IMG/VR virus record: IMGVR_UViG_3300015184_000033
Reading direction: 5' to 3' (one strand)
Source: a virus
Taxonomy: Duplodnaviria > Heunggongvirae > Uroviricota > Caudoviricetes
DNA: 45,562 nt
Below, one piece after another: positions 1 to 45,562 of this stretch (its first letter is position 1; each line of letters opens with the position of its first letter). The translations under genes and the position numbers were made by a program. The notes under the pieces were generated by a model. The model did no database searches. It was not told the DNA's origin and worked only from the letters and a program-made list of their open reading frames with translations.

Positions 1-27
1 TGTTTACCGTTTCCTGTAAACCGAGGT
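1..27. repeat. Terminal inverted repeat, left copy (27 bp); exact reverse complement of 45536-45562
   Basis: Direct comparison of window ends: TGTTTACCGTTTCCTGTAAACCGAGGT at 1-27 equals the reverse complement of the last 27 nt. Confidence 0.95.
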
Positions 28-1363
28 ATTCGATAACGGCGGCAACGGTCGATTTCGCAAGAATATCCCGCCCGACTTTTGTCAGAGTTGCCAGGCTGGC
101 GACATCATTCCCCGTAAAATACGGAAACCTGTCTGCCGCAGTAGCAAGCCCGGCCAGCGCCGTCAGGGTGGCATCTTTCGGTTGCTTACCCGCAAGCGCG
201 TTAGTCATGGTGGTCGCAAAATTCGGGTCGTTGCCCAACGCCGCAGCCAGCTCGTTCAGCGTATTCAGTGCGTCAGGCGACGAGTCCACGAGGGCAGCGA
301 TCGCAGCCATAACATAAGCCGTGCTTGCGATCTGAGTATTGTTAGTACCTTTTGGCGCAGTTGGTGTTGTTGGTGTTCCGGTCAGCGCCGGACTGTTCAG
401 GGGCGCTTTCTTGTTCGTTTCATCCATTACCACCTTTACAGCTTTCGATGTCGCGGCCAGTGTTTCAGACGTGCTGTTGGTGGCACTACTGAGCTGAGTT
501 ATTCCCCTTACAGTCAGTGAAGCTACAGGCACATTTGTTATCTGCTCCCACGAATGCGTGTGATTGGACGGAGCCTTTCCGGCCGCAAGATCATACGCTG
601 CCTTAACAGCCTTTGGTGTTGCTGCTAGCGTTTCAGACGTGCTGTTGGTGGCACTACTGAGCTGAACAATCCCTTTTCGCGCTGTGGTAGCGTCCTGTGC
701 GGTGTATTTAGCGTTAGCAAGGTCATATGCTGCCTTAACAGCCTTAGGCGTCGCAGCAAGCGTTTCAGACACGCTATTGGTGGCGCTGCTAAGTTGAACA
801 AAGCCTTTTGAGGTTAAAGTTGCATCAGGATGATTACGTGATTGTTCATGTTTCACAATGGATTGCTTAAGCCGCTTTGCTGAAACAGCAAGGGAATCAT
901 CTGTACCGTCATCAATTTCTTGTTCATTGGCAAATCTTGCTACCCCAACAACAGTTTCGGTTGCGGGAGGATTAATAAACTCAATATCACCAAATGTAAT
1001 ATTTTTAGTATCAAGAGTCTTGATTGCTATGTCACTTGATATTAAAGCAATAGTAGATGATGCTTTATTTATTATTGCTTGTTCTTGCGAGTATACAGCA
1101 AACAACGTTCCCTTATTTGTATACAATCCTATTGTATGGACAACATACTCATCTTTACTATCATCCTTCGCCGTCACATGAATTGTATCAGGGGAAACAA
1201 CTTTGCCACCTATTGTGGTAAGTCGTTTTATTTCGTCTGTTATATTTGTTTGTGAGGTTGACGTGACATAATATCTACTACCTAAACCAACAGACACAAT
1301 CTCAACTTTATTTGTTCCTGTTTTGTTGGCATTAACCAACTCCTGACGCCCGGCGTCAGTCAT
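1..1363 (-). CDS. Tail fibre protein, N-terminal constant part; 3' end partial, ORF runs off the window through the gix-like site
   Basis: Hand translation from ATG at 1363-1361 is open to position 1 (MTDAGRQELVNANKTGTNKVEIVSVGLG ... VAAVIEYLGLQETVN); repeated QLSSATNS-SETLAAT-KAVKAAYDLA units typical of P2 H / Mu S-type fibres; not in ORF track because no stop lies in the window. Confidence 0.8.
   Translation of the reverse strand, partial: MTDAGRQELVNANKTGTNKVEIVSVGLGSRYYVTSTSQTNITDEIKRLTTIGGKVVSPDTIHVTAKDDSKDEYVVHTIGLYTNKGTLFAVYSQEQAIINKASSTIALISSDIAIKTLDTKNITFGDIEFINPPATETVVGVARFANEQEIDDGTDDSLAVSAKRLKQSIVKHEQSRNHPDATLTSKGFVQLSSATNSVSETLAATPKAVKAAYDLANAKYTAQDATTARKGIVQLSSATNSTSETLAATPKAVKAAYDLAAGKAPSNHTHSWEQITNVPVASLTVRGITQLSSATNSTSETLAATSKAVKVVMDETNKKAPLNSPALTGTPTTPTAPKGTNNTQIASTAYVMAAIAALVDSSPDALNTLNELAAALGNDPNFATTMTNALAGKQPKDATLTALAGLATAADRFPYFTGNDVASLATLTKVGRDILAKSTVAAVIEYLGLQETVN
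11..36. other. gix/hix-like serine-invertase crossover site (left), TTCCTGTAAACCGAGGTATTCGATAA
   Basis: Close match to remembered Mu gixL (TTCCTGTAAACCGAGGTTTTGGATAA); lies inside the 3' end of the tail-fibre ORF; a Hin/Gin-family invertase gene sits next to the right copy. Confidence 0.6.
440..830. repeat. Three tandem intragenic repeats inside the tail-fibre gene
   Basis: Near-identical DNA blocks around 461-497, 630-667 and 760-800 (gtttcagacgtgctgttggtggcactactgagctga and variants) encoding G-I/F-V-QLSSATNSxSETLAAT-KAVKAAYDLA three times. Confidence 0.8.
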
Positions 1364-1414
1364 CGTAAATAATAATTTACTCACGCTTAATTCCTTGAAT
1401 TAACAAATTGCGAA

Positions 1415-1996
1415 TTAGCACTCGCCAATTAATCGTACATAGGACACAGGCTGACAAGCACCAACAATACCAACACCACCAGAAACATTGGCAGCTTGCG
1501 AAAATGTAAATAATGTTCTTGCCGACTTTGCGCTCTTGATACTTCTTAACGTATCTTCCAACATCTCTTTCGAAGGAACGGCACCATCAAAAGAGTTAAT
1601 CGAAGCAACAATTGAGGCTGTATATGGTTCGCCAGGTGGTGATGTTTCAAACCATTCTGTTATGTTTACCTCTCCACCCAAGCTATTTACTACATCTTCA
1701 ACCGCTGCCCTTGTACCCTTTATTCGCTTTGTTCGTATTATTGATTTAAAAACAGAACGCTTTAACGATATAGGCCAACTATCCCTCCATGTATCAGCAT
1801 TCCATTGCCAGGCTAAATGATCGAGAACAACTGAGTCCAGGTTATCAACAACGCTATATATTTCTGTCTTATATATTAAATTGTTAATTGCTTGTAGTTC
1901 ATTATCGATAGCTTTCGACATAGCTATCACGTTGGGATCTCTAGCTAAGTTAGGAGGTAAAACATCCAACAAGCTAACATTAAAGATATCAGCCAT
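1415..1996 (-). CDS. Baseplate/tail protein, P2 gpI-like
   Basis: 193-aa ORF between J-like gene and tail fibre; N-terminus MADIFNVSLLDVLPPNLA resembles phage tail protein I family; 8-nt overlap with upstream gene. Confidence 0.55.
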   Translation of the reverse strand: MADIFNVSLLDVLPPNLARDPNVIAMSKAIDNELQAINNLIYKTEIYSVVDNLDSVVLDHLAWQWNADTWRDSWPISLKRSVFKSIIRTKRIKGTRAAVEDVVNSLGGEVNITEWFETSPPGEPYTASIVASINSFDGAVPSKEMLEDTLRSIKSAKSARTLFTFSQAANVSGGVGIVGACQPVSYVRLIGEC

Positions 1997-3113
1997 CCTC
2001 TAACCCCGCATACTGGCAATTTATATTTCTCTCTCTGGCGACCTGCGTCTCTCCAACAACAGTAAATACAGGACTTGATATTTCTAATCTTTTAGCCCCG
2101 GCATTTTTTAAACGTTGAATAATTTCATCTGGATTTATATCTCTTCCCATAACCGAACGTTGCCATTGTTTATACTCATCAATAGCTTTCTCAACCTCAC
2201 TTTGAATTAATGTTGTTCTGTTTTTGTCCGATGAGTTAATCCAGTATTTAATTATTATATCGTATTCAATGCTCTCTGGTTTCTTAACAAGAACTTTATC
2301 TGTGAATGGTCGAATATTAGTTGCAGAGAGAACGCTATTTATCTGCTCCAATAGTTCATCAGAAGGTATATCTCCGTTCTCTAACAAAGAACGGATTTCT
2401 ACAGTTCCGGGCGATGGTGTATATACATTCACATCTTTTATATTCTGATTGGCTGTCCTTGTCCAATATTTATAAGAATCCTCCGGCCCTGCTGTAGACA
2501 GTTTTTCCGGCGACAGTTTTATTCTTTCAGCATAATTATCATCTGACTCTGTATCAGCACCAGAATTAGATGTTGTTAGATTCCTTACGCTGGAAACATA
2601 CGGCAACGGGGTCACCAACTCGTTTATTTGCCCAGGTAAAAAGCCATTCCCCGATAAGCCAGGTATAACGGCATATCCTGAGACTGTACCAACTGTTTTC
2701 CCAGCTGGTATTTCCAACAAAACATCTGTTTGGAAAATAACACTATTTCCAGTTGAAATTTGAGTGCCAGCAGGTATTGTATATATCCCCGATAATTTTG
2801 TTGACAGATTAAACTCAAATGTAGTCAAGGCAGATTGAGCTTCCAGCCTAGGCGTATCCGTCAGATAGCCTATATGGTCGAGATATTCACCCCCACCATA
2901 TGTAAGAAGGTTTTGTTTTGCAGAAAAATCGATAGCTTTTCTTTGCTGTATAATAATCTCACACAATGACAAGATGAATAATCTACGTGGATCAGCAGGT
3001 GCTAATGTTTCACCTGTTATACTCTCAAAAGCCCTGATTGAACGAGTTGTTATATCAGTCGGGTTAGAATCTGCGAAAGTAATATCTGGCAAACCACCGC
3101 GCGGCAACGTCAT
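1989..3113 (-). CDS. Baseplate J-like protein
   Basis: 374-aa ORF in W-J-I-fibre order typical of P2/Mu baseplate modules; overlapping stop/start with neighbours. Confidence 0.6.
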   Translation of the reverse strand: MTLPRGGLPDITFADSNPTDITTRSIRAFESITGETLAPADPRRLFILSLCEIIIQQRKAIDFSAKQNLLTYGGGEYLDHIGYLTDTPRLEAQSALTTFEFNLSTKLSGIYTIPAGTQISTGNSVIFQTDVLLEIPAGKTVGTVSGYAVIPGLSGNGFLPGQINELVTPLPYVSSVRNLTTSNSGADTESDDNYAERIKLSPEKLSTAGPEDSYKYWTRTANQNIKDVNVYTPSPGTVEIRSLLENGDIPSDELLEQINSVLSATNIRPFTDKVLVKKPESIEYDIIIKYWINSSDKNRTTLIQSEVEKAIDEYKQWQRSVMGRDINPDEIIQRLKNAGAKRLEISSPVFTVVGETQVARERNINCQYAGLEDG

Positions 3114-3430
3114 TCTCTAACTCCTATCACAAGTTTTGGCCTAATAAAACCATCAGAAACGTCCGTTCTTTCAAAAGTAACAGAATGGATAATCGCTCTA
3201 GGCTCAAACTCACTAATTTTTTGAATTATTTCTCGTGTTGCTGTAGCAATAAAAATTGGGCTGGGGCTATCAACAAGACTTGAATTAACTCCTAATTTTC
3301 TGGCATATGGTACAGTGCCAATCTGAGTATTAATAATAGTAGAGACATTTTGCAAAACTTCTTCTACAACTGTTTTGGGCGACCAATCAATCGAGTAAGA
3401 AGGTGATGATATGGTAAACGTATTATTCAT
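3110..3430 (-). CDS. Baseplate wedge protein gpW/gp25-like
   Basis: 106-aa ORF; size and position (just upstream of J-like gene) match GPW/gp25 family. Confidence 0.6.
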   Translation of the reverse strand: MNNTFTISSPSYSIDWSPKTVVEEVLQNVSTIINTQIGTVPYARKLGVNSSLVDSPSPIFIATATREIIQKISEFEPRAIIHSVTFERTDVSDGFIRPKLVIGVRE

Positions 3431-3894
3431 AATAATTTACCTAACGCACTTCTAGTTTTTGACTCTATATTGCCAGCAATATCAACTAATGCTTCTTTCA
3501 GAGAGGTCTGTCCGACTTCCTGTAATTTAATGCCGACGATAATCACTCGTGGATTCCCAGTTGGTCCGAAATAAGTCCATGATTCCTCTATATCTGTAAT
3601 TATAAAATTACCAAAATACTGAATACCAATTACAACAGGATTTACTTCCTGAATTGATTGCATTGTCCTAAGTAATGAAAGCGCAGCCAATGGAACAATG
3701 CCAAGTGTTGTATCCAACCGCATATTAAAACTAACTTCATCCAGATCTGGACCTATATCCTCCAGAACAGGTTTAAGCCCAATAACATCATGGCGCGCTA
3801 CACGACGCTTTGACGTCCTTTTAAAATTGTTGAACGTATTCACCACTATTGATGAGGCAACAAAAGGCATTGTACCAAGCATACCCACAATCAT
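3427..3894 (-). CDS. Tail/baseplate-associated protein (function unknown)
   Basis: 155-aa ORF translationally coupled between gpV-like and gpW-like genes; assignment by position only. Confidence 0.4.
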   Translation of the reverse strand: MIVGMLGTMPFVASSIVVNTFNNFKRTSKRRVARHDVIGLKPVLEDIGPDLDEVSFNMRLDTTLGIVPLAALSLLRTMQSIQEVNPVVIGIQYFGNFIITDIEESWTYFGPTGNPRVIIVGIKLQEVGQTSLKEALVDIAGNIESKTRSALGKLL

Positions 3895-4511
3895 GCCTGA
3901 GCCTCCGTTGTCGGAGCGTATTCCCCCTGAGCTGTGTGATGGTGGCCTTTAGATTTAATCCCATCAACATCTATATCACCACCAACAACCTTAACATCCC
4001 CAGAAATTGTAGCTGCAACACCTCCAGCAGAAGAGCCTTTCATTCCACCTTTGAAGGTTAGTAATCCTTCAACTGTAGCATTTCCGGTAATGATGGTTTC
4101 TGGAGCATCAATAGTTACGGTTCCTGTAGCCTTAACGGTTACATCTCCGACAGCATCAACAAGGAGTAAATTAGATTCTCTGTCTACCTCAATACGAGTT
4201 CCGTTATTAAATCTAATGACGCGTTTATTAACAGTATTAGATGGCGGCTTCTGTGTTTCATCATAAAAACTACCAAGAATAAAACCTTGTTGCGGCCCTG
4301 CGGGATGAAAGATACACAAAACTTGCTCACCAATATCTGGCATCCAGTAATCAGCATTCTTATCCGTATTTTTCACAATAACTGATAACTTTGCCGAAGT
4401 GACGTTATCCTGATCATCGAAAGTAACTCTTGCTGTAACATCACCATCATCAATATCAGAAACAACGCCAACTCTTATAGTCTGACGCAATAATGTTTCT
4501 AAATCATTCAT
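3891..4511 (-). CDS. Baseplate spike/assembly protein gpV-like
   Basis: 206-aa ORF; N-terminal OB-fold-like region followed by Gly-rich repeats (TVKATGTVTIDAPETIITGNATVEG) as in P2 V / Mu gp45 spikes. Confidence 0.6.
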   Translation of the reverse strand: MNDLETLLRQTIRVGVVSDIDDGDVTARVTFDDQDNVTSAKLSVIVKNTDKNADYWMPDIGEQVLCIFHPAGPQQGFILGSFYDETQKPPSNTVNKRVIRFNNGTRIEVDRESNLLLVDAVGDVTVKATGTVTIDAPETIITGNATVEGLLTFKGGMKGSSAGGVAATISGDVKVVGGDIDVDGIKSKGHHHTAQGEYAPTTEAQA

Positions 4512-4513
4512 AA

Positions 4514-5515
4514 TTAATACCCATTAATTACTCTTCGGACATCAATCGAGGTGGTATAACCACTAGCCCCAATTGAATGCACAGCTTTCGATATAAGATA
4601 TTTTCCAGAAAATGAACCGAATCCGTCCAGATTTATAGTTACACCAGCTACCAATCTGGTGTCTCCAACCAATACTAAAGATCCTGTATTTTGATATCTA
4701 TTTTTAAGCCGCAAAGCAGCCTTTGCCTTACGTTTTGCTTCATCTAAATTAGCTACCAGTTTTCTTATCTTAAGATTCGACCCTTCTTCTACGGATGGAT
4801 CTACCCAAGTATACGAAAGCGACTTTCTTTTTTTAGGTACGCGATATTTGCACGTGCAACTTTTATACAAATCTGTAGATTGTGTGCTAAAGCTATATCT
4901 GATTATCTCATCAATACCTAACGTAAGCGTAGCGATAGGATCTTTTTGCTCAAACATCTCTTGAGCAAATATTATTAATTGGCTATCAGTGACCTTTAAC
5001 GACAACCCTTCATCCTGGCAAAGTCGATGGAGAAATTTTAAATCGCTTTCCTCCATTTGATCTTCACGCGCATAATATGGATTACTATCACCATCAATAA
5101 GAAACAACAGTTCAAGGTTAGCTAATTTAGCTATAGAAGTTGCTATATCTTTAAGAGTTGTTTTTTCCCATGCATTACTTTTTAAATCACGTCTAATGCC
5201 TGATGAAACAGGAACAGAAACAGCAGTTACCTCAACAACAGAAGGTGGTCCAGAGCAAGTTATGCCATCTACCTGGAATTTCCCGCACTCAAGGACGATT
5301 TGATTTATAGGCTTAAAGCTCAAATCAATAAAATCACCCTTTTTAGGTGTCCAATCTCCAGACCATTTCCCATCATCATTTTTTAATATAATAGAAATAT
5401 CATCGACCTGACCATCTTCATTATCTGTATAAGACATTGACAAAACATCAGGTGACATATGAGCGGTAATATTTACATTCTGATATATAACATCAAAAAG
5501 CGTTTTACGTAACAC
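4514..5515 (-). CDS. Tail protein, P2 gpD-like (late control D / baseplate hub family)
   Basis: 333-aa ORF directly after tape measure and X-like gene; size and position fit gpD-like tail proteins. Confidence 0.45.
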   Translation of the reverse strand: MLRKTLFDVIYQNVNITAHMSPDVLSMSYTDNEDGQVDDISIILKNDDGKWSGDWTPKKGDFIDLSFKPINQIVLECGKFQVDGITCSGPPSVVEVTAVSVPVSSGIRRDLKSNAWEKTTLKDIATSIAKLANLELLFLIDGDSNPYYAREDQMEESDLKFLHRLCQDEGLSLKVTDSQLIIFAQEMFEQKDPIATLTLGIDEIIRYSFSTQSTDLYKSCTCKYRVPKKRKSLSYTWVDPSVEEGSNLKIRKLVANLDEAKRKAKAALRLKNRYQNTGSLVLVGDTRLVAGVTINLDGFGSFSGKYLISKAVHSIGASGYTTSIDVRRVINGY

Positions 5516-5723
5516 TATTGCGTCTCCACGGAGGCAAATTGTTTACTGATATTGGCATAACCGGAGCATCAGGAACTTTAAGAATAATTCCCGCAGAAAA
5601 AAGCACCGTAAAGCGGTGCTCAGTATTAGCATCAATAAGAAGATAAGACAGGTACTCATTACCATACAACTTTAACGCGATACTATCCCATGAGTCCCCT
5701 TGAACCGTTCTATAATCATCCAA
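5505..5723 (-). CDS. Tail protein X-like (LysM-like)
   Basis: 72-aa ORF MDDYRTVQGDSWDSIALKLYGNEYLSYLLIDAN...; pattern TxxQGDxxDxIAxxxYG...LLxAN matches P2 gpX family. Confidence 0.55.
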   Translation of the reverse strand: MDDYRTVQGDSWDSIALKLYGNEYLSYLLIDANTEHRFTVLFSAGIILKVPDAPVMPISVNNLPPWRRNSVT

Positions 5724-8508: not shown

Positions 8509-8513
8509 TAGTA

Positions 8514-8696
8514 TTAATCCTCATTAAACACATCAATCCATGCGACAATTCGCCTCAACCGAAGCGAAAGCCAGTAGGATATAGGTGTTGATTGAGATGA
8601 TTGAGATAGAGAACTCGCGGCCCTCATTATTTGCTTATCAATAGGTTTTTGCTCATCAAAACCTACGAGAGCAAAAAATTCTGTACCTTTTGGCAA
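8514..8696 (-). CDS. Tail assembly chaperone, -1 frame extension (E'-like part)
   Basis: 60-aa ORF overlapping upstream chaperone ORF by 34 nt in the -1 frame; slippery TTTTTTG in overlap. Confidence 0.5.
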   Translation of the reverse strand: MPKGTEFFALVGFDEQKPIDKQIMRAASSLSQSSQSTPISYWLSLRLRRIVAWIDVFNED

Positions 8697-8944: not shown

Positions 8945-8953
8945 TTTGTCACC

Positions 8954-37215: not shown

Positions 37216-37230
37216 ATTCAACCATAAAAA

Positions 37231-37248
37231 AGGCCCCCGAAGGGGCCT
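37231..37248 (-). terminator. Intrinsic terminator hairpin
   Basis: AGGCCCC-CGAA-GGGGCCT; on the minus strand followed by TTTTTATGG. Confidence 0.55.
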
Positions 37249-37253
37249 AATCG

Positions 37254-37376
37254 CTACTTGCTGCTAATGTTTATCGTCACATTCAGAGCGTTATCAGTAA
37301 TCTTCCAACCCTCCCCATGTGGCGTAAACAAAGCTCCAGTAACAACGATAAAAATACACATACAGTATTTTTTCAT
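37254..37376 (-). CDS. Small hydrophobic peptide (40 aa), candidate type-I toxin
   Basis: MKKYCMCIFIVVTGALFTPHGEGW...; SD-like AAGGG 5 nt upstream of ATG 37376; terminator immediately downstream. Confidence 0.35.
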   Translation of the reverse strand: MKKYCMCIFIVVTGALFTPHGEGWKITDNALNVTINISSK

Positions 37377-37440
37377 TGTGTGGCCCTTACAGGCCGTTTC
37401 ACGGCATCCCCACCGACGAAAATGACGCGAGAGCAAGCAC

Positions 37441-37460
37441 GCTGTTTGTGCCTGCGTGGT
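37441..37460. repeat. 20-bp direct repeat, copy 1 (GCTGTTTGTGCCTGCGTGGT)
   Basis: Matches 37691-37710 at 19 of 20 positions; lies 65 nt upstream of the small peptide ATG. Confidence 0.85.
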
Positions 37461-37690
37461 ACGGCAAGTGGATAATCCTTTCCTGAAAGTCAGTGCCCGG
37501 GTGCGAATCGGCGGAAAGGCCCCAAGCCATATTACACGTCATACCCTTCATAATGAAGGAATAAAAAACGCTTTTATTACATAAGATTACACGTAAATAA
37601 GTTAAAAACCTTCATTTTGCATGAGCTAATGAGCTAAATTTTTTTATATGAATAGTGGACTATTCACCTCAGTTGGGTAAGAATGTAGTT

Positions 37691-37768: not shown

Positions 37769-37793
37769 CCGTCCTCAAAAGGACGGTTTTTTT
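37769..37793 (+). terminator. Intrinsic terminator (bidirectional hairpin)
   Basis: CCGTCCT-CAAAA-AGGACGG followed by TTTTTTT on plus strand; also overlaps the stop codon of the minus-strand HTH gene. Confidence 0.5.
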
Positions 37794-38347
37794 GTTTCTC
37801 CCCCTTCCTTCCCAAATGATTCAAATGTTAATGAGAGAGAATCATTTGATATGTTCGATTTAGCGCCGTTATCGACCCAATTTCTGTATGCTTCATCACA
37901 ACAGTACCTTACAGCAGTTGGAATAACAGGAGAGCCGCCCAGAAATGAAAATCCCATTGAGCTTATGCTAATTCTTTCGAATGGCCTATTTCTCAATGCT
38001 TCAAATCCCTTGCTGTTGAAGTAACTCAGCATCAGAGGTAAAAGGTTATCCTCATCTTGACTGATTGTTCCCGGGAAAAAGTAGTAACCATGGCGATTAA
38101 ATTCGGGAATCAGTTTTTCTACCAACAACATGAAATTCATTGGGGTAATATTAAGGGCAGAGCAAGCACCAAAAAGAGCATCAACCGTTAATACAGACTG
38201 TCCGTTCTCTATCTTTGTCCATGCGTTTGGTGTTTTTCCAGCAGCTTGAGCCAGCACTCCTTGATGCACACCTCTTTCTAGCCTAAGTTCTTTTATGATC
38301 ATTAGGTGGATTGTTGAAAAACATGAGTTTTTTGACGTTTCAGTCAT
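37775..38347 (-). CDS. XRE-family HTH regulator (second repressor-like protein)
   Basis: Start placed at ATG 38347 (GGGGA upstream); HTH segment IKELRLERGVHQGVLAQAAGKTPNAWTKIENGQ. Confidence 0.55.
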   Translation of the reverse strand: MTETSKNSCFSTIHLMIIKELRLERGVHQGVLAQAAGKTPNAWTKIENGQSVLTVDALFGACSALNITPMNFMLLVEKLIPEFNRHGYYFFPGTISQDEDNLLPLMLSYFNSKGFEALRNRPFERISISSMGFSFLGGSPVIPTAVRYCCDEAYRNWVDNGAKSNISNDSLSLTFESFGKEGGETKKPSF

Positions 38348-38485
38348 TTTTTTATCCCCATATTGAATTTTTTCCTTGTTCCCAACTTTAACAAAACACC
38401 ACAACCCAGGATTGAGTCATTCCTTACAGGAACTATACATTCCCGTCTTTGGTATATCAAGAAAATTAAAAGCTCGGCATTCAAA

Positions 38486-38500
38486 CCCACACTATGTGGT
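38486..38500. promoter_or_regulatory. Operator-like dyad CCCACACTATGTGGT between HTH gene and antirepressor operon
   Basis: Matches ACCAC-N5-GTGGT family at 9 of 10 half-site positions. Confidence 0.45.
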
Positions 38501-38612
38501 TTAGTCTGTTAAAATCCGCCGTATTGACATGAATGCGCCATTGGTGGACACTTTCCGAGCCGTAGCAAAATCTACGGTCGGGATTGGAACCCCGATAATC
38601 ATCATGGCGCAT

Positions 38613-38635
38613 ACCGCGTTAGCGGTTTTTTTATG
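38613..38635 (+). terminator. Attenuator-like hairpin with T-run in the antirepressor leader
   Basis: ACCGC-GTTA-GCGGT followed by TTTTTTTAT; outer arms GCGCATA/TATGCG allow an alternative pairing. Confidence 0.4.
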
Positions 38636-38797
38636 CGTAAAGCACTGCTACACCCAAATTATGGTGGGGCGTGCGGGGGAGTCGTTAGACTCGCCGGATT
38701 CCATGGTGACCGGTAGTTCCAACCCTGTACGTCTCACCACCCAATGATTGGAACCAGACGGTGGTGAGTATCCTTAACCTTTAAGGGAACTATCACC

Positions 38798-38989
38798 ATG
38801 ACAAACTTACCCCATGACTATTACGTCAACCTCGTAAAGATCCTTCTCAAGAAAGCCTCATACGCCGATAAATTACGCCTGGCTGAAATCATCGAGCGCG
38901 AAGCTATGCGCATCGCCAGCAACGATAACGCTGTTTCTGACGCAAAAATCTCCCTCGTAACCAAAGTAGTTATGGGAGGTGCAAAATGA
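38798..38989 (+). CDS. Small protein preceding antirepressor (Icd-like position)
   Basis: 63-aa ORF with SD AAGGGAA; stop overlaps the antirepressor ATG (ATGA). Confidence 0.45.
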   Translation: MTNLPHDYYVNLVKILLKKASYADKLRLAEIIEREAMRIASNDNAVSDAKISLVTKVVMGGAK

Positions 38990-40155
38990 AAACGCTTCCG
39001 ACCGTTAACACCCTACAGCCTATCCTGCATAACCAGATCCCCGTTATCACTACTGAACTTTTGGCGCAGTTTTACGGCACCGAGATCAACAATATCAAAG
39101 TCAATTACACCCGTAATGCTGAAAGGTTTGTTGAGGGAAAACACTTTTTCAAAGTTGGTGGCGATGCCCTGAAAAATTTGCGGGTTACTTTAAGTAACTC
39201 ACAAAATTTGCAACCATCTTTAAGAGGGTTACAAATTTCCCCGAAAGCCCGCTCCCTCATTCTCTGGACAGAACGCGGGGCTGCACGTCACGCTAAAATG
39301 CTCGAAACCGATCAGGCGTGGGATGTATTCGAACGGCTGGAAGACTGCTATTTCAACCAGAACGCGCAAACGGCCGCGACCGTAACCGTCTCGCCAAACA
39401 ATGCTCGTGAGGTTGTCGATACGCTCAACGCCAAACCGATGTTTTACATTAAGGTGTGCAATAACGAGCCACTCACAACCTCAGCCGATGTTGCCCAGGC
39501 ATTCAGCACCACAAACAATTCCATCGTTATGGCCATCGATGCGTTACGCATTCCTCGCACAGCTGCGGCGCGTCATTTCTTTAAAGAGCAACGACCGTTG
39601 GAAGGAAGCGACCGCGAAATAACAATCTATCGCATGACAAAAGACGGATTTACCTTGCTCATGGAAAGTATCGACGGTCCAGGCGTGAAGGATATCAAGC
39701 TGGCCTACATTGAAGCCTTTAACGCTATCAGCAGCGTGTTAAAAACACAGTACGAGCGCGATCTGGCTAAACGACTGTACCAGGAAAAAACGATTATCCG
39801 CGCGGCAACAGAGCATAATCGGCTATTAACGGAACCGAACTACAGGAAGGAACTAATCAAGGAGTTTGACAAGGCAACAGGGAAAACCAAAGCGGCGCTA
39901 AATCTGCCAGCAATGACTCAGGAAAATGTGATATCAGCCTTACTTCTTGATCTGCTCAGAAACGCCAGAGCACTGATCAGCTTTGACGAAAACCTGAATC
40001 CTCAGCTCAAGCTACTACCACCGACAGGCAAAGTAGTCGACCAGGCAGATCACAACAGCATACTCAGCGTACTGGATGCAAACCTGCCAGCCAGGACACT
40101 ACAGGAGCTGATAAAAACATGTGCTGATAAGCTCGCACAGAAAAGCAGACCATAA
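38986..40155 (+). CDS. Antirepressor (AntA-like N-terminal domain)
   Basis: 389-aa ORF; N-terminus HNQIPVITTELLAQFYGTEINNIKVNYTRNAERFVEGKHFFKV matches the phage antirepressor N-terminal signature. Confidence 0.8.
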   Translation: MKTLPTVNTLQPILHNQIPVITTELLAQFYGTEINNIKVNYTRNAERFVEGKHFFKVGGDALKNLRVTLSNSQNLQPSLRGLQISPKARSLILWTERGAARHAKMLETDQAWDVFERLEDCYFNQNAQTAATVTVSPNNAREVVDTLNAKPMFYIKVCNNEPLTTSADVAQAFSTTNNSIVMAIDALRIPRTAAARHFFKEQRPLEGSDREITIYRMTKDGFTLLMESIDGPGVKDIKLAYIEAFNAISSVLKTQYERDLAKRLYQEKTIIRAATEHNRLLTEPNYRKELIKEFDKATGKTKAALNLPAMTQENVISALLLDLLRNARALISFDENLNPQLKLLPPTGKVVDQADHNSILSVLDANLPARTLQELIKTCADKLAQKSRP

Positions 40156-41632: not shown

Positions 41633-41932
41633 TCAGATGTTAAACGCTATTCGTTTTCCTGTGGGAAGCTCAACATCCAGGCTTAATTTGCCTCCCATAG
41701 CTTCAACGTAACGCTTTAATGTCGCCAGCTTTAAATCATTTCCGCGCTGCTCCAGCTTTGTTACTGCTGGCTGGCTTATACCCATCGCCTCAGCAACCTG
41801 TTTTTGTGATAACTGGAGTTCTTCACGCATCATCTGCAAGCCGACCTCAAGAATCATCTCATCTGCCATTTCTTTAATTCGCGCCTGGCTTTCCGGTGAA
41901 CGGCTGGCAATCGCCTCATCTAATGTTCTCAT
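41633..41932 (-). CDS. HigA-like HTH antitoxin
   Basis: 99-aa ORF with XRE-type HTH (LQLSQKQVAEAMGISQPAVTKLEQ); immediately downstream of toxin-like ORF. Confidence 0.65.
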   Translation of the reverse strand: MRTLDEAIASRSPESQARIKEMADEMILEVGLQMMREELQLSQKQVAEAMGISQPAVTKLEQRGNDLKLATLKRYVEAMGGKLSLDVELPTGKRIAFNI

Positions 41933-42279
41933 TACTTGCTCTCCAGTGTGTTCAGATGTGCTGCAAACTCATCCTCAGCTATACGCACCAGTTTTTCATA
42001 AAACCGCTTATCGTTACTTTTGTCTCCTGCACAAAGAACGATGGCCCGGCGAATCGGATCGAACGCATAAAAGGCTCTTATCGGACGGCCAGAAAACTGA
42101 ACGCGAAGCTCTTTCATATTTTTGTACCGAGAACCTTTTACGGTATCGGCATATGGCCTGGGTAACTCAGGTCCGTAAACCTGTAGCTTTTTCAAATCAG
42201 CCAAAACCTTTTCCTGAAGAGCGTCTTCTTGCTCATTTAGCCAGTCGTCAAATCGCTGGCTAAAAAGTACCGTCCACAT
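41932..42279 (-). CDS. HigB/RelE-superfamily toxin-like protein (Gp49-like)
   Basis: About 115 aa from ATG 42279 (AGGA upstream); motifs KELRVQFSGRPIRAFYAF and VLCAGDKSND typical of HigB-like killer proteins; toxin-first order. Confidence 0.6.
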   Translation of the reverse strand: MWTVLFSQRFDDWLNEQEDALQEKVLADLKKLQVYGPELPRPYADTVKGSRYKNMKELRVQFSGRPIRAFYAFDPIRRAIVLCAGDKSNDKRFYEKLVRIAEDEFAAHLNTLESK

Positions 42280-42523
42280 GCTCAATCCTATAACCTGTAG
42301 TTTATATCACTAACTATATAACCTGTGAGTTATAATTTCAAGAAAAACGGGGCTATTTAACATAATGGACGTTATCGGCACCACCGGATCACCGTTCATT
42401 GTCGGATCTAAAAAATCCGCTCAAAAGATCATGTTTTCCTGGGCGTTTTCCACCGTTTTTTATGTTGCTTATTTGTTAATGAAATCTCGTTTTCAGTTTC
42501 GCCTCATTTTCGACGCGAAAGCC

Positions 42524-43499: not shown

Positions 43500-43700
43500 T
43501 AAATAAAGAAAGTCTTAATAAAAGAAAGTGATTTTGCATTTATTTGTTTAGTGCATCTATTATAAAAAACCATTTGCATATACATATCAAAACTGTGGAT
43601 AACTTTATTAGCCGATGCCTGTGAAGGCGATATTTTTGCTGTGTTCAGGTTTAGAGAAAATTAATTTAGATTGTTTTTTGAACAGACATTTTATTGCGAC
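43500..43700. other. Candidate plasmid-type origin (oriR-like): AT-rich region with DnaA box downstream of repA
   Basis: Strongly AT-rich block; TGTGGATAA (complement of TTATCCACA) at 43584-43592; position matches IncFII oriR arrangement. Confidence 0.5.
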
Positions 43701-43743: not shown

Positions 43744-44592
43744 TTAATGTTGGAGTGATTTCCAGGTCTTTCTTAACCTGTTATAACGCTGCTCAACGAG
43801 GGATCGTAAATATGCAAGGTCAGCTCCAGGATACATGCCATCAGCAAATTCCTGGCTAACCTCTCTAGTGATTTGATGACGAAGTTCGGCCTCTCCCTTT
43901 TCCCGAACAAGACGCGCAGCTCTCTCCGCTGCTTTCTGTTTTGCCTTTATCTCTCTGGCCGTCTTCCTCTGACGCCATACATTCTCCATCTGCTCCTGAA
44001 TAACAATACGCTTATAATCAGCCTCCGTTATCGCTTTTTTAAGCCGTTCGCTATTCTTCGCATTGAAGTAATTAAGTTTCTGGCTAACCGCACGTCTCCA
44101 TGCTTGTTCAGTAATACCAACGGTTTCCAGCAGTTGATCACGAATCTCTATTTTCGCTGGCCAATACTGTTTATTCACCCGATCCCAGCGACGTTCATAA
44201 TCAATAAAACCTAACTCTTTCAGTTGCGACAACGCCCTTGTACAGCGCGTTATAGACTTGTTCCCAGCTTCGGATACGGTAGACAGGCCGCAAAAATCAG
44301 CCAACGCCTCAGCACTGGCCAGAACCCGCTTAGAAATGATGTTTACATGGTGCAAAATCGCAGCAATCACAGCATTAATTGCCCGACGACGATGCTCGTT
44401 TATCCGGCGTTTCCGCTCTGACGGTTGATTAACGTAGAACGCAACCTCACACGTAAGATCACGACCATTAATGCGCTGTAAAGCATCAGATAACACCAGC
44501 GGCAGCTTGTGCGTATGGTGCTTTGGAGGCTGGAACTCCGGCGACAAATTACAAACGTAAGCTGAACGTAGAGACGGCATTGGTCTATCCAT
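43744..44592 (-). CDS. repA: Replication initiator RepA (IncFII RepA1 family)
   Basis: Block SITRCTRALSQLKELGFIDYE aligns with remembered R100 RepA1 SITRATRALTFLSELGLITYQ; start set at ATG 44592 because the tracked ORF starts at GTG 44736 and its first codons overlap an antisense-strand terminator hairpin. Confidence 0.75.
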   Translation of the reverse strand: MDRPMPSLRSAYVCNLSPEFQPPKHHTHKLPLVLSDALQRINGRDLTCEVAFYVNQPSERKRRINEHRRRAINAVIAAILHHVNIISKRVLASAEALADFCGLSTVSEAGNKSITRCTRALSQLKELGFIDYERRWDRVNKQYWPAKIEIRDQLLETVGITEQAWRRAVSQKLNYFNAKNSERLKKAITEADYKRIVIQEQMENVWRQRKTAREIKAKQKAAERAARLVREKGEAELRHQITREVSQEFADGMYPGADLAYLRSLVEQRYNRLRKTWKSLQH

Positions 44593-44690
44593 ATGTTCGC
44601 TCTTGCGTCCACGGAAAACCAACGTATAATGGGAGTTGTCGAGGCGCCCATGGTTAGTTGTTGGTTTTCCTTTCCGTGGATGTCGCAAGA

Positions 44691-44722
44691 AGCCCGCAGA
44701 TTTATCTGCGGGCTTTTTGTTT
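44691..44722 (+). terminator. Hairpin plus T-run antisense to the repA leader (candidate CopA-like antisense RNA terminator)
   Basis: GCCCGCAGA-TTTA-TCTGCGGGC followed by TTTTTGTTT on the plus strand. Confidence 0.45.
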
Positions 44723-44762
44723 CCATATCTGGTCACTTTTCAACCAGACACCCACAATCATA

Positions 44763-44777
44763 ACCACGTTACGTGGT
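44763..44777. promoter_or_regulatory. Operator-like dyad ACCACGTTACGTGGT upstream of the repA leader
   Basis: Perfect ACCAC-N5-GTGGT dyad, same family as immunity-region operators. Confidence 0.5.
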
Positions 44778-44907: not shown

Positions 44908-45462
44908 TCAATGATTCCCAGCCGGAAACCTGCGGTAAAGCGTGGATAAGGTAACATCGAAGATAATCGCTATCCGCTTACGTGAAACACCATTCGCAAT
45001 AAGCCTTCCGATCTGTTCCCATTGCTCTGGTGCCAATTTTGAGCGGCGTCCTCCTATCCTGCCGTTAGCCCTTGCCACCGCCAATCCTGCACGCGTTCTT
45101 TCAATCATATTTTCCCGCTCCATCTCTGCGACTGCACTCAGCATCGTGTAGGCAAAGCGGCCAATTGAAGTGCTAATTTTTATCCCTTCCGTAATCGAAA
45201 TAAACTCAATGTTGTTTGATAAAAAATGGTTAAGTAAATCAACAAGATGAATCAGAGAACGCCCCATTCGGTCCAGCTTCCAGACAATAACCGTATCGCC
45301 CGGCCGTAACACCTTCAGTAGCTTATCAAGTCCTGGTCGTTTTGATTTAGCACCGGATATTTTATCTTCAAAAATCCGGTCACATCCTGAACTCCTGAGC
45401 GCCTCCAGTTGTAATTCCAAATTCTGGTCAAAAGTTGACACCCTCGCATAACCATATTGCAT
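44908..45462 (-). CDS. Serine recombinase, DNA invertase of the Hin/Gin/Cin/Pin family
   Basis: 184-aa ORF; MQYGYARVSTFDQNLELQ...GDTVIVWKLDRMGRS...RIAIIFDVTLSTLYRRFPAGNH parallels remembered Hin sequence including catalytic Ser region and C-terminal HTH. Confidence 0.9.
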   Translation of the reverse strand: MQYGYARVSTFDQNLELQLEALRSSGCDRIFEDKISGAKSKRPGLDKLLKVLRPGDTVIVWKLDRMGRSLIHLVDLLNHFLSNNIEFISITEGIKISTSIGRFAYTMLSAVAEMERENMIERTRAGLAVARANGRIGGRRSKLAPEQWEQIGRLIANGVSRKRIAIIFDVTLSTLYRRFPAGNH

Positions 45463-45526
45463 ACTTTCTAAACCGCGATTGTTGCTAAAAGCGGGAAAAA
45501 ATATCGTTCAGACGACACAGAGGCAA

Positions 45527-45552
45527 TTCGCAAAAACCTCGGTTTACAGGAA
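45527..45552. other. gix/hix-like invertase crossover site (right), TTCGCAAAAACCTCGGTTTACAGGAA
   Basis: Inverted relative to site at 11-36; close to remembered gix (TTATCCAAAACCTCGGTTTACAGGAA); 65 bp from invertase gene start. Confidence 0.6.
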
Positions 45553-45562
45553 ACGGTAAACA
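45536..45562. repeat. Terminal inverted repeat, right copy (27 bp)
   Basis: Exact reverse complement of positions 1-27. Confidence 0.95.

What the first reader, a model, noticed from the sequence alone, without database searches (positions are those of the whole stretch)
1..45562. Phage-plasmid architecture: complete virion and lysis modules with IncFII-type RepA, ParF/ParG-like partition and toxin-antitoxin, but no integrase or lambda-type replication genes
The window holds a full lambda-like head/packaging set and a P2/Mu-like contractile tail plus a lysis cassette and a cI/Cro-like switch. The only recombinase is a small serine invertase. Maintenance functions are plasmid-type: a RepA1-family initiator with a downstream AT-rich origin and DnaA box, a ParF/ParG-like pair, and a HigB/HigA-like pair. 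Between the Cro-like gene and the Q-like gene there are only four small ORFs, with no O/P, helicase or primase. This suggests lysogeny as an extrachromosomal replicon in which RepA may also serve lytic replication.
Basis: partly seen in the sequence, partly recalled or inferred. Interest (0 to 1): 0.7.

Follow-up and report, generated by a model that had tools for sequence, protein, structure and literature searches.

The report
Known-type E. coli phage-plasmid

Summary
The window carries an intact lambda-type head and packaging set, a P2-type contractile tail, a lysis cassette, a repressor with palindromic operators, one Hin/Gin-type invertase and no integrase. It also carries an IncFII-superfamily RepA with a DnaA box and AT-rich origin, a small ParA with a ribbon-helix-helix partner, and HigBA.

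The two window ends are a perfect 27-nt inverted repeat identical to the phage Mu G-segment boundary. So the contig is the whole element minus a roughly 3-kb invertible tail-fibre segment, not a piece of chromosome.

It is 97-99% identical to 47-52 kb circular E. coli plasmids and to three deposited Yersinia phages. In 62 of 5,426 complete E. coli genomes its hin-repA-TA end lies on a plasmid-sized record in all 60 listed.

New here: the repressor's operator palindrome recurs exactly in the repA leader, next to a predicted antisense RNA. That fits one replicon serving both plasmid and lytic modes, but it is untested.

Verdict: real, interpretation supported, a member of a known kind, modest interest.

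The parts
1..27 (.). Left inverted repeat (gix-type crossover site) at the contig end
   Evidence: Perfect reverse complement of 45536-45562. Corresponds to inverted repeat I3 in relative L002.
2..1384 (-). Tail-fibre gene, constant N-terminal part, cut by the window start
   Evidence: Phage_fiber_2 repeats, E=2.7e-58. In L002 the gene runs a further 851 nt into the invertible segment.
1415..10955 (-). P2-type contractile tail and baseplate module: I, J, W, GpU-like, V, D, X, tape measure, chaperones, tube, sheath
   Evidence: Tail_P2_I, Baseplate_J, a weak GPW_gp25 match, Phage_P2_GpU, Phage_base_V, Phage_GPD, PhageMin_Tail, Phage_TAC_7 and Phage_tube. The sheath 9492-10955 is assigned by position and RefSeq annotation of relatives.
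10955..18657 (-). Lambda-type head and packaging module: connector ORFs, capsid protein, 127-aa ORF, ClpP-type protease, portal, DUF6148, large terminase
   Evidence: Phage_cap_E, CLP_protease, Phage_portal_2, DUF6148, GpA_ATPase plus GpA_nuclease.
18663..19804 (-). Putative small terminase (186 aa, by position only) and a ParB-N domain protein (196 aa)
   Evidence: ParB_N at 33.7 bits. The 186-aa ORF has no Pfam hit.
19805..20361 (.). AT-rich non-coding stretch, probable cos region
   Evidence: All three Yersinia phage records begin within about 12 nt of window position 20218. This is an inference.
20362..25842 (-). Accessory block: 239-aa ORF, ParB-N/methyltransferase fusion (459 aa), ParB-N protein (207 aa), small ORFs, MT-A70 methyltransferase
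   Evidence: Methyltransf_23 plus ParB_N, ParB_N, MT-A70. The other ORFs have no Pfam hit.
26151..26226 (-). tRNA-Met
   Evidence: ARAGORN. Rfam tRNA at 67 bits.
26396..28050 (-). Lysis cassette: two holins, GH108 endolysin, spanin-like pair, preceded by a strong terminator-like hairpin at 28022-28048
   Evidence: Phage_holin_8, Phage_holin_3_7, Glyco_hydro_108 plus PG_binding_3. Terminator-like site. The spanins are assigned by position and a lipobox.
28733..32089 (-). Middle block: Ead/Ea22-like protein, 113-, 251-, 121- and 100-aa ORFs, DUF3560 protein (31022-32089)
   Evidence: Ead_Ea22 and DUF3560. DUF3560 relatives are fused to PF08401 and to PF18850/PF18847.
32259..32636 (-). 125-aa candidate late regulator (Q21-like fold, sigma region-4-like C-terminus)
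   Evidence: AlphaFold model, pLDDT 77. The top PDB fold hits are Q21 structures, with TM about 0.5 and E about 0.3. No Pfam hit.
32640..34609 (-). Early operon: 164-aa first gene (Cro position), 171 aa, 77 aa, Ref-family nuclease, DUF1064
   Evidence: RecA_dep_nuc and DUF1064. PHROGs of unknown function. Same gene order in the Salmonella and Serratia relatives.
34610..34783 (.). Divergent control region with operator palindromes ACCAC-N5-GTGGT (34629-34643, 34732-34746, and a degenerate copy at 34650-34664)
34784..35440 (+). cI-type repressor (HTH_3 plus a weak S24-like C-terminal domain)
   Evidence: HTH_3 at 43 bits. Peptidase_S24 at 18.4 bits, below its cut-off of 23.3.
35483..35497 (.). 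Exact operator palindrome between the repressor gene and the 124-aa/parA genes
   Evidence: Present at the same place in L001-L004 with different spacers.
35930..37003 (+). Partition module: AT-rich TATA-box arrays (35931-35960, 36006-36031, 36712-36739), ParA (36043-36711), 82-aa ribbon-helix-helix partner (36755-37003)
   Evidence: CbiA/ParA/MipZ hits. NF041546 at 78 bits, below its cut-off. ParF structure 4dzz at E=3e-4. Seventeen of 47 relatives of the 82-aa protein hit RHH_10. Arrays.
37226..37524 (-). ryfA-family RNA containing a 40-aa hydrophobic ORF (37254-37376)
   Evidence: Rfam RF00126 at 131 bits against a gathering score of 80. ORF seen.
37775..38404 (-). Second HTH regulator, divergent from the antirepressor operon
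   Evidence: HTH_3 at 29.4 bits.
38486..40155 (+). P1 immI-like module: operator-like palindrome (38486-38500, one mismatch), isrK-like RNA (38559-38632), C4 antisense RNA (38657-38744), 63-aa ORF (38798-38989), ORF6N plus Rha antirepressor (38986-40155)
   Evidence: RF01394 at 70 bits against 50, and RF01695 at 84 bits against 45. ORF6N plus Phage_pRha. A sequence complementary to part of C4 is repeated at 38582-38591 and 38746-38755.
41633..42285 (-). HigB-like toxin (41932-42285) followed by an HTH antitoxin (41633-41932)
   Evidence: Gp49 PF05973 at 81 bits. HTH_3 and HTH_37.
42355..42382 (-). dif/cer-like XerCD site GGTGCCGATAA-CGTCCA-TTATGTTAAAT
   Evidence: XerD arm 11/11, XerC arm 9/11. 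Conserved in L001-L004; a diverged copy is present in L005.
43500..43602 (-). Probable origin: DnaA box (43594-43602) plus an AT-rich region
   Evidence: The only exact TTATCCACA in the window. Sequence.
43744..44736 (-). repA (IncFII superfamily). The likely true start is the ATG at 44592, giving 282 aa
   Evidence: PF02387 and NF040977. A 2-nt indel in L001 breaks the upstream extension, and the Salmonella and Serratia genes are annotated at 277-278 aa.
44637..44727 (+). Predicted countertranscript against the repA leader (promoter TTGCGT-16-TATAAT at 44603-44630, terminator hairpin 44685-44720)
   Evidence: Fold z-score -8.55. In the Serratia relative the hairpin is kept with differing bases and the -10 region is conserved. 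There is no Rfam CopA match.
44763..44777 (.). Exact operator palindrome ACCACGTTACGTGGT in the repA promoter/leader region
   Evidence: Conserved upstream of repA in L001-L004; the spacer differs in Salmonella.
44908..45462 (-). Hin/Gin/Cin-type serine DNA invertase
   Evidence: Resolvase at 151 bits plus HTH_7. 89.8% DNA identity to the pin region of phage SJ46.
45536..45562 (.). Right inverted repeat (gix-type crossover site) at the contig end
   Evidence: The last 30 nt are 100% identical to the annotated G-segment boundary of phage Mu.

Best explanation
The window is a temperate myovirus that is kept in lysogens as a low-copy circular plasmid of about 48.6 kb: a phage-plasmid. It was assembled as one contig that broke at the inverted repeats flanking its invertible tail-fibre segment.

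Shown here: intact lambda-type head and P2-type tail genes, a lysis cassette, no integrase, and plasmid-only location of close relatives.

Inferred plasmid mode:
- An IncFII-superfamily RepA acts on a downstream DnaA-box/AT-rich origin. A roughly 90-nt countertranscript against the repA leader restrains it.
- A small ParA and a ribbon-helix-helix partner segregate copies, using AT-rich arrays of 8-bp-phased TATA boxes.
- Host XerCD resolves multimers at a dif-like site.
- HigBA, and possibly a ryfA-type toxin RNA, penalise loss of the element.

Inferred immunity:
- A cI-type repressor binds ACCAC-N5-GTGGT palindromes. These lie at the divergent early promoter region, downstream of its own gene next to the par genes, near the antirepressor operon and in the repA leader.
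- A P1-like C4 antisense RNA holds down an ORF6N/Rha antirepressor.

Inferred lytic mode: loss of repressor opens the early operon and at the same time releases repA. The single replicon then amplifies the genome. Ref and DUF1064 nucleases may help make concatemers, which the lambda-type terminase would cut at a cos site near 20218. A Q21-like protein may switch on late genes. The invertase flips the tail-fibre segment to alternate host range.
For: Architecture.

Contig ends: the two ends are a perfect 27-nt inverted repeat. The right-end copy is 100% identical over 30 nt to the Mu G-segment boundary. In the complete relative L002 the ends are joined by 3.06 kb holding tail-fibre C-termini and two pairs of assembly genes.

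Episomal state:
- 63 circular non-mobilizable PLSDB plasmids of 44-52 kb.
- 62 of 5,426 complete E. coli genomes carry at least 80% of the hin-repA-TA block. The 60 listed records are all 32-94 kb; chromosomes hold only 19 of the 294 matching places, and with a longer probe only 1-2% fragments.

Virion production: three phage genome records with Y. pestis EV76-CN as host are 97-99% identical and carry the same RepA.

Replicon:
- PF02387 at 150.7 bits and NF040977 at 232 bits against a cut-off of 70.
- A unique DnaA box.
- The leader folds strongly, z=-8.55. Its hairpin is kept with differing bases in Serratia.

Operators: four exact palindromes where 0.035 are expected by chance, all intergenic. 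They sit at the same places in E. coli, E. albertii, Yersinia-phage and Salmonella relatives, with constant arms and variable spacers.

Other maintenance and immunity parts: Xer site; C4 and isrK RNAs plus the antirepressor; ribbon-helix-helix partner; arrays, 13 matches against 0.013 expected.

No other replication protein: Pfam, PHROGs and NCBIfam find no O/P, helicase, primase or polymerase. The same early operon is kept in a Serratia relative that has a different (siphovirus) tail.
Against: - Circularity and copy number of this particular element cannot be read from one contig.
- No paper in the held library documents induction or plaques for this family, so virion production rests on database records alone.
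- The operator-repressor pairing is assumed from position, and no binding data exist. The copy near the antirepressor operon has one mismatch and sits about 25 nt upstream of both divergent -35 boxes.
- No clear promoter overlaps the repA-leader operator.
- Several early proteins (164, 171 and 77 aa) have no assignable function and could include a replication factor. The 171-aa model was uninformative.
- The PHROG that matches the DUF3560 C-terminus is labelled 'primase'.
- No LexA box sits near any control region, and the S24 match is below cut-off, so the induction signal is unknown.
- The Q-like assignment is weak (E about 0.3).
Confidence: 0.85

Rival explanations
1. RepA and its origin run plasmid-mode replication only. 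Lytic amplification depends on an unrecognised function among the early-operon proteins (164, 171 or 77 aa) or the DUF3560 protein, as phage P1 uses RepL/oriL separately from RepA/oriR.
For: Three conserved early proteins have no assignable function. They occupy the position where lambdoid phages carry O and P. The DUF3560 C-terminus matches a PHROG labelled 'primase' at E=2e-36. P1 sets the precedent of two replicons (established knowledge).
Against: No helicase, primase, polymerase or initiator domain was detected in any of them. DUF3560 relatives are fused to PF08401 and PF18850/PF18847 rather than to primase domains. The 171-aa model is a generic alpha/beta fold. No second DnaA-box or iteron-like origin was seen. 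The repressor-type operator sits in the repA leader.
Confidence: 0.3
2. The element is a decaying, plasmid-borne prophage remnant that no longer makes infectious particles and persists only as a cryptic plasmid.
For: No published induction data were found. Some relatives are visibly damaged: E. albertii pEA15_3 has IS3 insertions in the J and I tail genes, and shortened 31-39 kb versions exist.
Against: In the window every structural ORF has the same length as in the relatives. Three near-identical genomes were deposited as phages with Y. pestis as host. Conservation is 97-99% across many hosts.
Confidence: 0.1
3. It is an integrated prophage whose integrase and att sites lie just outside the window.
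For: The window is a linear contig and lacks about 3 kb of the full element.
Against: Both ends are the gix-type inverted repeats. Complete relatives close the circle with tail-fibre genes only and have no integrase. No chromosomal copy appears among the records listed from 5,426 complete E. coli genomes.
Confidence: 0.03
4. The window is an assembly chimera that joins a plasmid contig to a phage contig.
For: None, apart from the mixed gene content.
Against: It is collinear over its whole length with more than 60 independently assembled circular records and with three phage records.
Confidence: 0.01

Closest known systems
Phage P1 / P7 (circular phage-plasmid, myovirus)
   Same: Episomal prophage. 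Immunity includes a C4 antisense RNA upstream of a small ORF and an antirepressor (immI layout; Rfam C4 at 84 bits). A serine invertase flips a tail-fibre segment. Repressor operators are scattered around the genome. It also carries a partition system and a toxin-antitoxin pair.
   Different: This element is half the size, at about 48.6 kb against 94 kb. Its head is lambda-type and its tail P2-type. Its RepA belongs to the IncFII superfamily and has a predicted antisense RNA, where P1 has an iteron RepA. No separate RepL/oriL lytic replicon is found. It has a small ParA with a ribbon-helix-helix partner, not ParA/ParB; a Xer site, not Cre/lox; HigBA, not Phd/Doc; and a cI-type HTH repressor, not C1. 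The P1 features listed are from established knowledge.
Phage N15 (linear phage-plasmid)
   Same: A lambdoid-style cB/cro/Q-type immunity layout, an antirepressor locus, and one replication gene used in both prophage and lytic modes (my recollection of the N15 literature, not checked here).
   Different: N15 is linear with a protelomerase, is a siphovirus, and its RepA is a primase-helicase. Here the genome is circular and the initiator belongs to the IncFII superfamily.
IncFII replicon of R1/R100 (RepA1, CopA, CopB, tap, oriR)
   Same: The RepA Pfam family (PF02387). The origin lies downstream of repA, with a DnaA box beside an AT-rich region. A predicted roughly 90-nt countertranscript targets the repA leader.
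   Different: RepA scores 81.6 bits against a cut-off of 447 for the incFII_RepA equivalog, and is only about 32% identical over residues 130-255. No Rfam CopA match. No copB gene. A phage-repressor-type operator occupies the place where CopB would act.
ParF/ParG of plasmid TP228 (type Ib partition) and omega of pSM19035
   Same: A small Walker ATPase without an N-terminal DNA-binding domain, followed by a roughly 80-aa protein with a disordered tail and a ribbon-helix-helix fold. Repeat arrays lie upstream of the ATPase gene. The arrays recur at other promoters, as omega sites do.
   Different: Only a weak ParF match (E=3e-4). The 82-aa protein is outside the ParG Pfam family. The repeat unit is TATA-N4 rather than the ParG boxes or the omega heptads. 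Binding is untested.
Phage Mu G segment / Gin
   Same: The last 30 nt of the window are 100% identical to the Mu G-segment boundary. The invertase lies next to the segment, which carries alternative tail-fibre C-termini and assembly genes in opposite orientation.
   Different: The rest of the genome is unrelated to Mu. There is no transposase.
SSU5/pHCM2/pSLy3 supergroup of enterobacterial phage-plasmids
   Same: Same lifestyle and the same host range of genera.
   Different: Those are roughly 100-kb siphoviruses with other replicons. No DNA similarity to them appeared among the hits.

Membership tests
Phage-plasmid (sense of Pfeifer et al. 2021, PMC7969092) | Complete set of phage structural, packaging and lysis genes | tested here: met
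   Only the distal tail-fibre parts are outside the window, and relatives carry them.
Phage-plasmid (sense of Pfeifer et al. 2021, PMC7969092) | Plasmid-type replication and partition genes | tested here: met
   RepA, ParA.
Phage-plasmid (sense of Pfeifer et al. 2021, PMC7969092) | Extrachromosomal replicon in lysogens | tested here: met
   Shown for close relatives only: 63 circular plasmids, and plasmid-sized records in all 60 listed of 62 complete E. coli genomes. It cannot be tested directly for this contig.
Phage-plasmid (sense of Pfeifer et al. 2021, PMC7969092) | Infectious virions | not testable with these tools
   Three relatives at 97-99% identity are deposited as phages with Y. pestis EV76-CN as host. 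No paper was found.
IncFII RepA1 replicon (R1/R100) | RepA in Pfam IncFII_repA | tested here: met
   150.7 bits against a cut-off of 22.9.
IncFII RepA1 replicon (R1/R100) | RepA reaches the incFII_RepA equivalog cut-off (TIGR03474) | tested here: not met
   81.6 bits against 446.9. It instead passes NF040977 RepA_IncFII_LM, at 232 bits against 70.
IncFII RepA1 replicon (R1/R100) | CopA-family antisense RNA | tested here: not met
   No CopA hit, even at E<=10. An analogous countertranscript is predicted from the fold and from conservation.
IncFII RepA1 replicon (R1/R100) | CopB repressor gene upstream of repA | tested here: not met
   Only 171 nt separate the invertase gene from repA, and no ORF lies there.
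IncFII RepA1 replicon (R1/R100) | Origin downstream of repA with a DnaA box and an AT-rich region | tested here: met
ParF/ParG type Ib partition | Small ParA-type Walker ATPase | tested here: met
   222 aa; CbiA/ParA/MipZ hits; ParF structure 4dzz at E=3e-4.
ParF/ParG type Ib partition | Partner belongs to Pfam ParG (PF09274) | tested here: not met
   No hit for the 82-aa protein. One of 47 relatives matches at E=0.018.
ParF/ParG type Ib partition | Partner has a ribbon-helix-helix fold | tested here: inconclusive
   Seventeen of 47 relatives hit RHH_10 and 12 hit Antitox_RHH. The query itself gives no hit, and no structure was predicted.
ParF/ParG type Ib partition | Repeat-array centromere or operator near the ATPase gene | tested here: inconclusive
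   Arrays are present at 35931-36031 and 36712-36739. Binding is untested.
HigBA toxin-antitoxin | Toxin gene first, RelE/ParE-superfamily toxin, HTH antitoxin | tested here: met
   Gp49 PF05973 at 81 bits, followed by HTH_3/HTH_37. Gene order.
Lambda-type cI/Cro switch | HTH repressor with an S24 autocleavage domain | tested here: inconclusive
   HTH_3 is met. S24 scores 18.4 bits, below its cut-off of 23.3.
Lambda-type cI/Cro switch | Several palindromic operators between divergent genes | tested here: met
Lambda-type cI/Cro switch | Cro-family HTH as the first rightward gene | tested here: not met
   No Pfam hit for the 164-aa protein or its N-terminal 72 aa at E<=10. The assignment is positional only.
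P1/P7 immI (c4-icd-ant) | C4 antisense RNA | tested here: met
   RF01695 at 84 bits against a gathering score of 45.
P1/P7 immI (c4-icd-ant) | Small ORF and antirepressor downstream, with target sequences complementary to C4 | tested here: inconclusive
   The layout is met. A 7-nt core complementary to C4 is repeated upstream and downstream of it. No function was tested.
Q antiterminators (Q21 type) | Sequence or fold membership | tested here: inconclusive
   No Pfam hit. Q21 structures are the top fold hits, but with E of 0.3-0.9 and TM of 0.44-0.54.
Gin/Hin/Cin invertible tail-fibre switch | Serine invertase with crossover sites in inverted orientation | tested here: met

The most novel reading that the evidence does not exclude
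A single IncFII-like, antisense-RNA-controlled theta replicon is wired into the phage immunity circuit. The prophage repressor binds an operator in the repA leader, taking the place CopB holds in R1. It also binds beside the partition genes and near the antirepressor operon. The same RepA and origin would then give low-copy plasmid maintenance under repression and runaway lytic replication on induction, with no dedicated lytic replicon. A ribbon-helix-helix partition protein may add a second, plasmid-style global regulon through eight dispersed TATA-box arrays.
Probability: 0.35. Interest if true: 0.5.

Novelty: new member of a known kind. Interest (0 to 1): 0.3.

Why it matters
Phage-plasmids are a recognised and common class. 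This family is in about 1% of complete E. coli genomes, including the quality-control strain ATCC 25922, yet I found no paper in the held library that describes it. One prophage-induction study of ATCC 25922 searched only the chromosome for prophages.

If the repressor-repA link is real, the family is a compact, tractable model of how one replicon switches between plasmid and viral modes. It would also show how plasmid copy control can be handed over to a phage repressor.

The Serratia relative carries the same maintenance and immunity backbone with a siphovirus tail. That shows the backbone moving between virion types as a unit.

In practice, such contigs in short-read assemblies break at the invertible segment and are easily misfiled as 'plasmid' or as 'incomplete prophage'.

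Tried and rejected
- Literature: I guessed the element belonged to the pSLy3 group, but that group is part of the roughly 100-kb SSU5 supergroup. Searches by accession, phage name and keywords found no description of this family. The Gilcrease and Casjens 2018 paper is not held.
- RepA search in species-representative genomes found nothing.
- DUF3560 as a primase: rejected. Relatives are fused to PF08401 and PF18850/PF18847, not to primase domains, and there is no similarity to any solved structure.
- The 171-aa early protein: only 10 relatives, a low-confidence model, and generic alpha/beta fold hits.
- Sequence searches of solved structures for the 125-, 171- and 82-aa proteins found nothing useful.
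- CopA or any other Rfam family in the repA leader: only sub-threshold terminator-like matches.
- LexA boxes: one match, inside a structural gene, at chance level.
- Co-variation of the operator with the repressor in the Serratia relative could not be tested, because its half-site (GTGGTTAT-like) is nearly the same as here.
- I looked for a canonical sigma-70 promoter overlapping the operators at 35483 and 44763 and found none.

Full report
WHAT IS THERE

Nearly all genes run on the minus strand.

- Positions 2-10955 encode a P2-type contractile tail. Pfam finds Tail_P2_I, Baseplate_J, Phage_P2_GpU, Phage_base_V, Phage_GPD, a tape measure and the FII tube.
- Positions 10955-18657 encode a lambda-type head and packaging set: capsid protein E family, ClpP-type protease, lambda-family portal and a gpA-type large terminase.
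- A lysis cassette lies at 26396-28050, with two holins, a GH108 endolysin and a spanin-like pair.
- The remaining third holds regulatory and plasmid functions.
- No tyrosine integrase or large serine recombinase was found in about 58 ORFs scanned. The only recombinase is a 184-aa Hin/Gin-type invertase.

THE WINDOW ENDS EXPLAIN THE CONTIG

The first 27 nt are the exact reverse complement of the last 27 nt. The last 30 nt are 100% identical to the annotated G-segment boundary of phage Mu.

In the complete circular relative OR545054, the two window ends map to positions 20218 and 23279. The 3.06 kb between them holds the variable tail-fibre C-termini and two pairs of tail-fibre assembly genes in opposite orientation, flanked by the same inverted repeat.

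The window is therefore the whole element minus its invertible segment. That is the usual break point for a short-read assembler. The full size would be about 48.6 kb.

IS IT EPISOMAL?

- The window is 97-99% identical over most of its length to circular E. coli, E. albertii, E. fergusonii and Klebsiella plasmids of 47-52 kb. One of them is the 48,488-bp plasmid of ATCC 25922.
- A family-specific protein finds 63 PLSDB records, all typed non-mobilizable.
- In 5,426 complete E. coli genomes, the invertase-repA-toxin block is at least 80% covered in 62 genomes. The 60 records listed are all 32-94 kb.
- Chromosomal hits are only short partial matches. With a longer probe they cover 1-2% of the query, mostly antirepressor-gene fragments.
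- Three phage genome records (vB_YpM_39, 41 and 44, host Y. pestis EV76-CN) share the structural genes and the same RepA.

THE PLASMID FUNCTIONS

RepA matches Pfam IncFII_repA at 150.7 bits and passes the NCBIfam equivalog RepA_IncFII_LM at 232 bits against a cut-off of 70. It falls far short of the classical incFII_RepA model, at 81.6 bits against 447. It is only about 32% identical to R1-type RepA over residues 130-255.

The likely true start is the ATG at 44592, which gives 282 aa. Three things point to it. The family models begin near residue 57-62 of the long ORF. A 2-nt indel in ATCC 25922 breaks the upstream extension. The Salmonella and Serratia genes are annotated at 277-278 aa.

The only TTATCCACA in the window lies about 140 nt downstream of repA and is followed by an AT-rich stretch.

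Upstream, the plus strand at 44603-44727 carries a TTGCGT-16-TATAAT promoter-like site and a hairpin with a U-run. The region folds far better than shuffles (z=-8.55). In the diverged Serratia replicon the hairpin is kept with differing bases and the -10 region is conserved. I read this as a CopA-like countertranscript, although Rfam finds no CopA match. This step is inferred.

ParA is a 222-aa Walker ATPase with a weak match to ParF. Its 82-aa partner has no Pfam hit of its own. However, 17 of 47 relatives found by an exhaustive HMMER search hit the ribbon-helix-helix family RHH_10, and only one hits ParG, weakly. 'ParG-like' is therefore right for fold class and gene position, but not for family.

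HigB (Gp49 family) precedes an HTH antitoxin.

- A dif/cer-like XerCD site lies at 42355-42382, with a perfect XerD arm. It is conserved in all five relatives examined, with a diverged copy in Serratia. It supplies multimer resolution without an element-encoded resolvase.
- A ryfA-family RNA at 37226-37524 scores 131 bits. It contains a 40-aa hydrophobic ORF and may be a second, type I addiction module.
- An isrK-like RNA and a C4 antisense RNA (84 bits against a gathering score of 45) sit directly upstream of a 63-aa ORF and an ORF6N/Rha antirepressor. This reproduces the P1/P7 immI layout. A short sequence complementary to part of C4 is repeated on both sides of it.

IMMUNITY AND ITS LINK TO THE REPLICON

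The 218-aa repressor has an HTH_3 domain and a sub-threshold S24 match. It is divergent from a 164-aa gene. The 174-nt spacer between them holds two exact copies and one degenerate copy of ACCAC-N5-GTGGT.

The same palindrome occurs exactly at 35483, between the repressor gene and the par genes, and exactly at 44763, in the repA leader. A copy with one mismatch lies at 38486, between the second HTH gene and the antirepressor operon.

Exact matches expected by chance number 0.035 per window, and four are seen. The sites sit at the same places in the E. coli, E. albertii, Yersinia-phage and Salmonella relatives, with constant arms and variable spacers. That is the pattern of a protein-binding site.

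I infer that the prophage repressor also acts on repA. This would let the single replicon be released on induction.

Consistent with this, no O/P, helicase, primase or polymerase domain was found anywhere. The early operon (164, 171 and 77 aa, Ref nuclease, DUF1064) is kept even in the Serratia plasmid pJSRIV006_2, which carries the same RepA/Par/repressor backbone with a lambda-like siphovirus tail.

The weak points are these:
- No binding data exist.
- No clear promoter overlaps the repA operator.
- Three early proteins have unknown function.
- The induction signal is unknown, because no LexA box lies near any control region.

LATE CONTROL

The 125-aa 'Q-like' protein has no Pfam hit. An AlphaFold model built from 24 relatives reached pLDDT 77. 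Its best matches among solved structures are five entries of the Q21 antiterminator, followed by sigma region-4 domains. However, E is about 0.3 and TM about 0.5. This is weak support only.

The DUF3560 protein that follows it matches a PHROG labelled 'primase'. Its relatives, though, are fused to PF08401 and PF18850/PF18847, which I recall as ArdC-N and polyvalent-protein domains. I do not count it as a replication protein.

DISPERSED ARRAYS

Arrays of 8-bp-phased TATA boxes, with core TATAGATTTATATAATTATATAA, occur at eight intergenic loci, each co-oriented with the gene downstream. Two lie upstream of parA and one between parA and its partner. The others lie upstream of the DUF3560 gene, a 100-aa ORF, a 126-aa ORF, tRNA-Met and an 89-aa ORF.

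The pattern gives 13 matches where 0.013 are expected.

The Serratia relative has no such arrays. It has a different AT-rich repeat at equivalent places, again with two clusters upstream of parA.

My best guess is that these arrays bind the ribbon-helix-helix partition protein. It would then act as both centromere binder and global regulator, like omega of pSM19035 or KorB of RK2. They could instead be promoter or UP elements. Nothing here decides between these readings.

COMPARISON AND VERDICT

The element works like P1 in lifestyle, immI module and invertible tail fibre. It may work like N15 in using one replicon for both modes. It is built from different parts: a lambda-type head, a P2-type tail, an IncFII-superfamily replicon, a type Ib partition system, a Xer site and HigBA.

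It is not a member of the P1, N15 or SSU5/pSLy3 groups. I found no paper in the held library that names this family.

Phage-plasmids as a class are well established (PMC7969092), and near-identical sequences are already public. The finding is therefore correct but not surprising. The repressor-repA coupling and the array regulon are the parts worth an experiment.

Noticed in passing
window 38486-40155: A P1/P7 immI-like module: isrK-like RNA, C4 antisense RNA, a 63-aa ORF and an ORF6N/Rha antirepressor. A short motif complementary to part of C4 is repeated at 38582-38591 and 38746-38755.
   Followed up: partly
window 37226-37524 (-): A ryfA-family RNA (131 bits) containing a 40-aa hydrophobic ORF at 37254-37376. 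It may be a type I toxin-antitoxin module in addition to HigBA.
   Followed up: partly
window 42355-42382 (-): A dif/cer-like XerCD recombination site with a perfect XerD arm. It is conserved in all five relatives examined, with a diverged copy in the Serratia plasmid.
   Followed up: yes
window 25230-25259, 26366-26395, 30959-30988, 32178-32203, 35931-35960, 36006-36031, 36712-36739, 41567-41586: Eight intergenic arrays of 8-bp-phased TATA boxes, each co-oriented with the downstream gene. Three share a further identical 31-nt extension containing TTTACA. The Serratia relative has a different AT-rich repeat at equivalent places.
   Followed up: partly
L005 (Serratia sp. JSRIV006 plasmid pJSRIV006_2), whole record: It has the same RepA, ParA, repressor, early-operon and Rha backbone, but a lambda-like siphovirus tail and a fused protease-capsid gene. 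The maintenance and immunity module has moved between virion types.
   Followed up: partly
window 19805-20361: A roughly 550-nt AT-rich non-coding stretch upstream of the ParB-N, putative TerS and TerL genes. All three Yersinia phage records begin within about 12 nt of window position 20218, which suggests the cos site.
   Followed up: partly
window 19214-19804, 21098-22477, 22471-23094, 25255-25842: Three ParB N-terminal-domain proteins, one fused to a methyltransferase domain, plus a separate MT-A70 methyltransferase. Their roles are unknown; they are unlikely to be the partition system.
   Followed up: no
window 26151-26226 (-): A tRNA-Met lies just downstream of the lysis cassette and is preceded by one of the TATA-box arrays.
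   Followed up: no
window 28022-28048 (-): A strong terminator-like hairpin (11 pairs followed by a T-run) lies immediately upstream of the RefSeq-annotated holin start. It recalls the terminator that lambdoid Q proteins override, but the Q-like gene is 4 kb upstream.
   Followed up: no
L003 (E. albertii pEA15_3) 4830-9200: IS3-family insertions interrupt the baseplate J and tail I genes, so some family members are decaying into plain plasmids.
   Followed up: no
NZ_CP032086.1 (E. coli ATCC 25922, 94,204-bp record): This record holds six matching places and is about twice the 48,488-bp plasmid seen in other ATCC 25922 assemblies. It is probably a dimer or an assembly duplication.
   Followed up: no
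Paper PMC10567762: A prophage-induction study of ATCC 25922 searched only the chromosome record for prophages, so the plasmid-borne phage of that strain was not considered.
   Followed up: no
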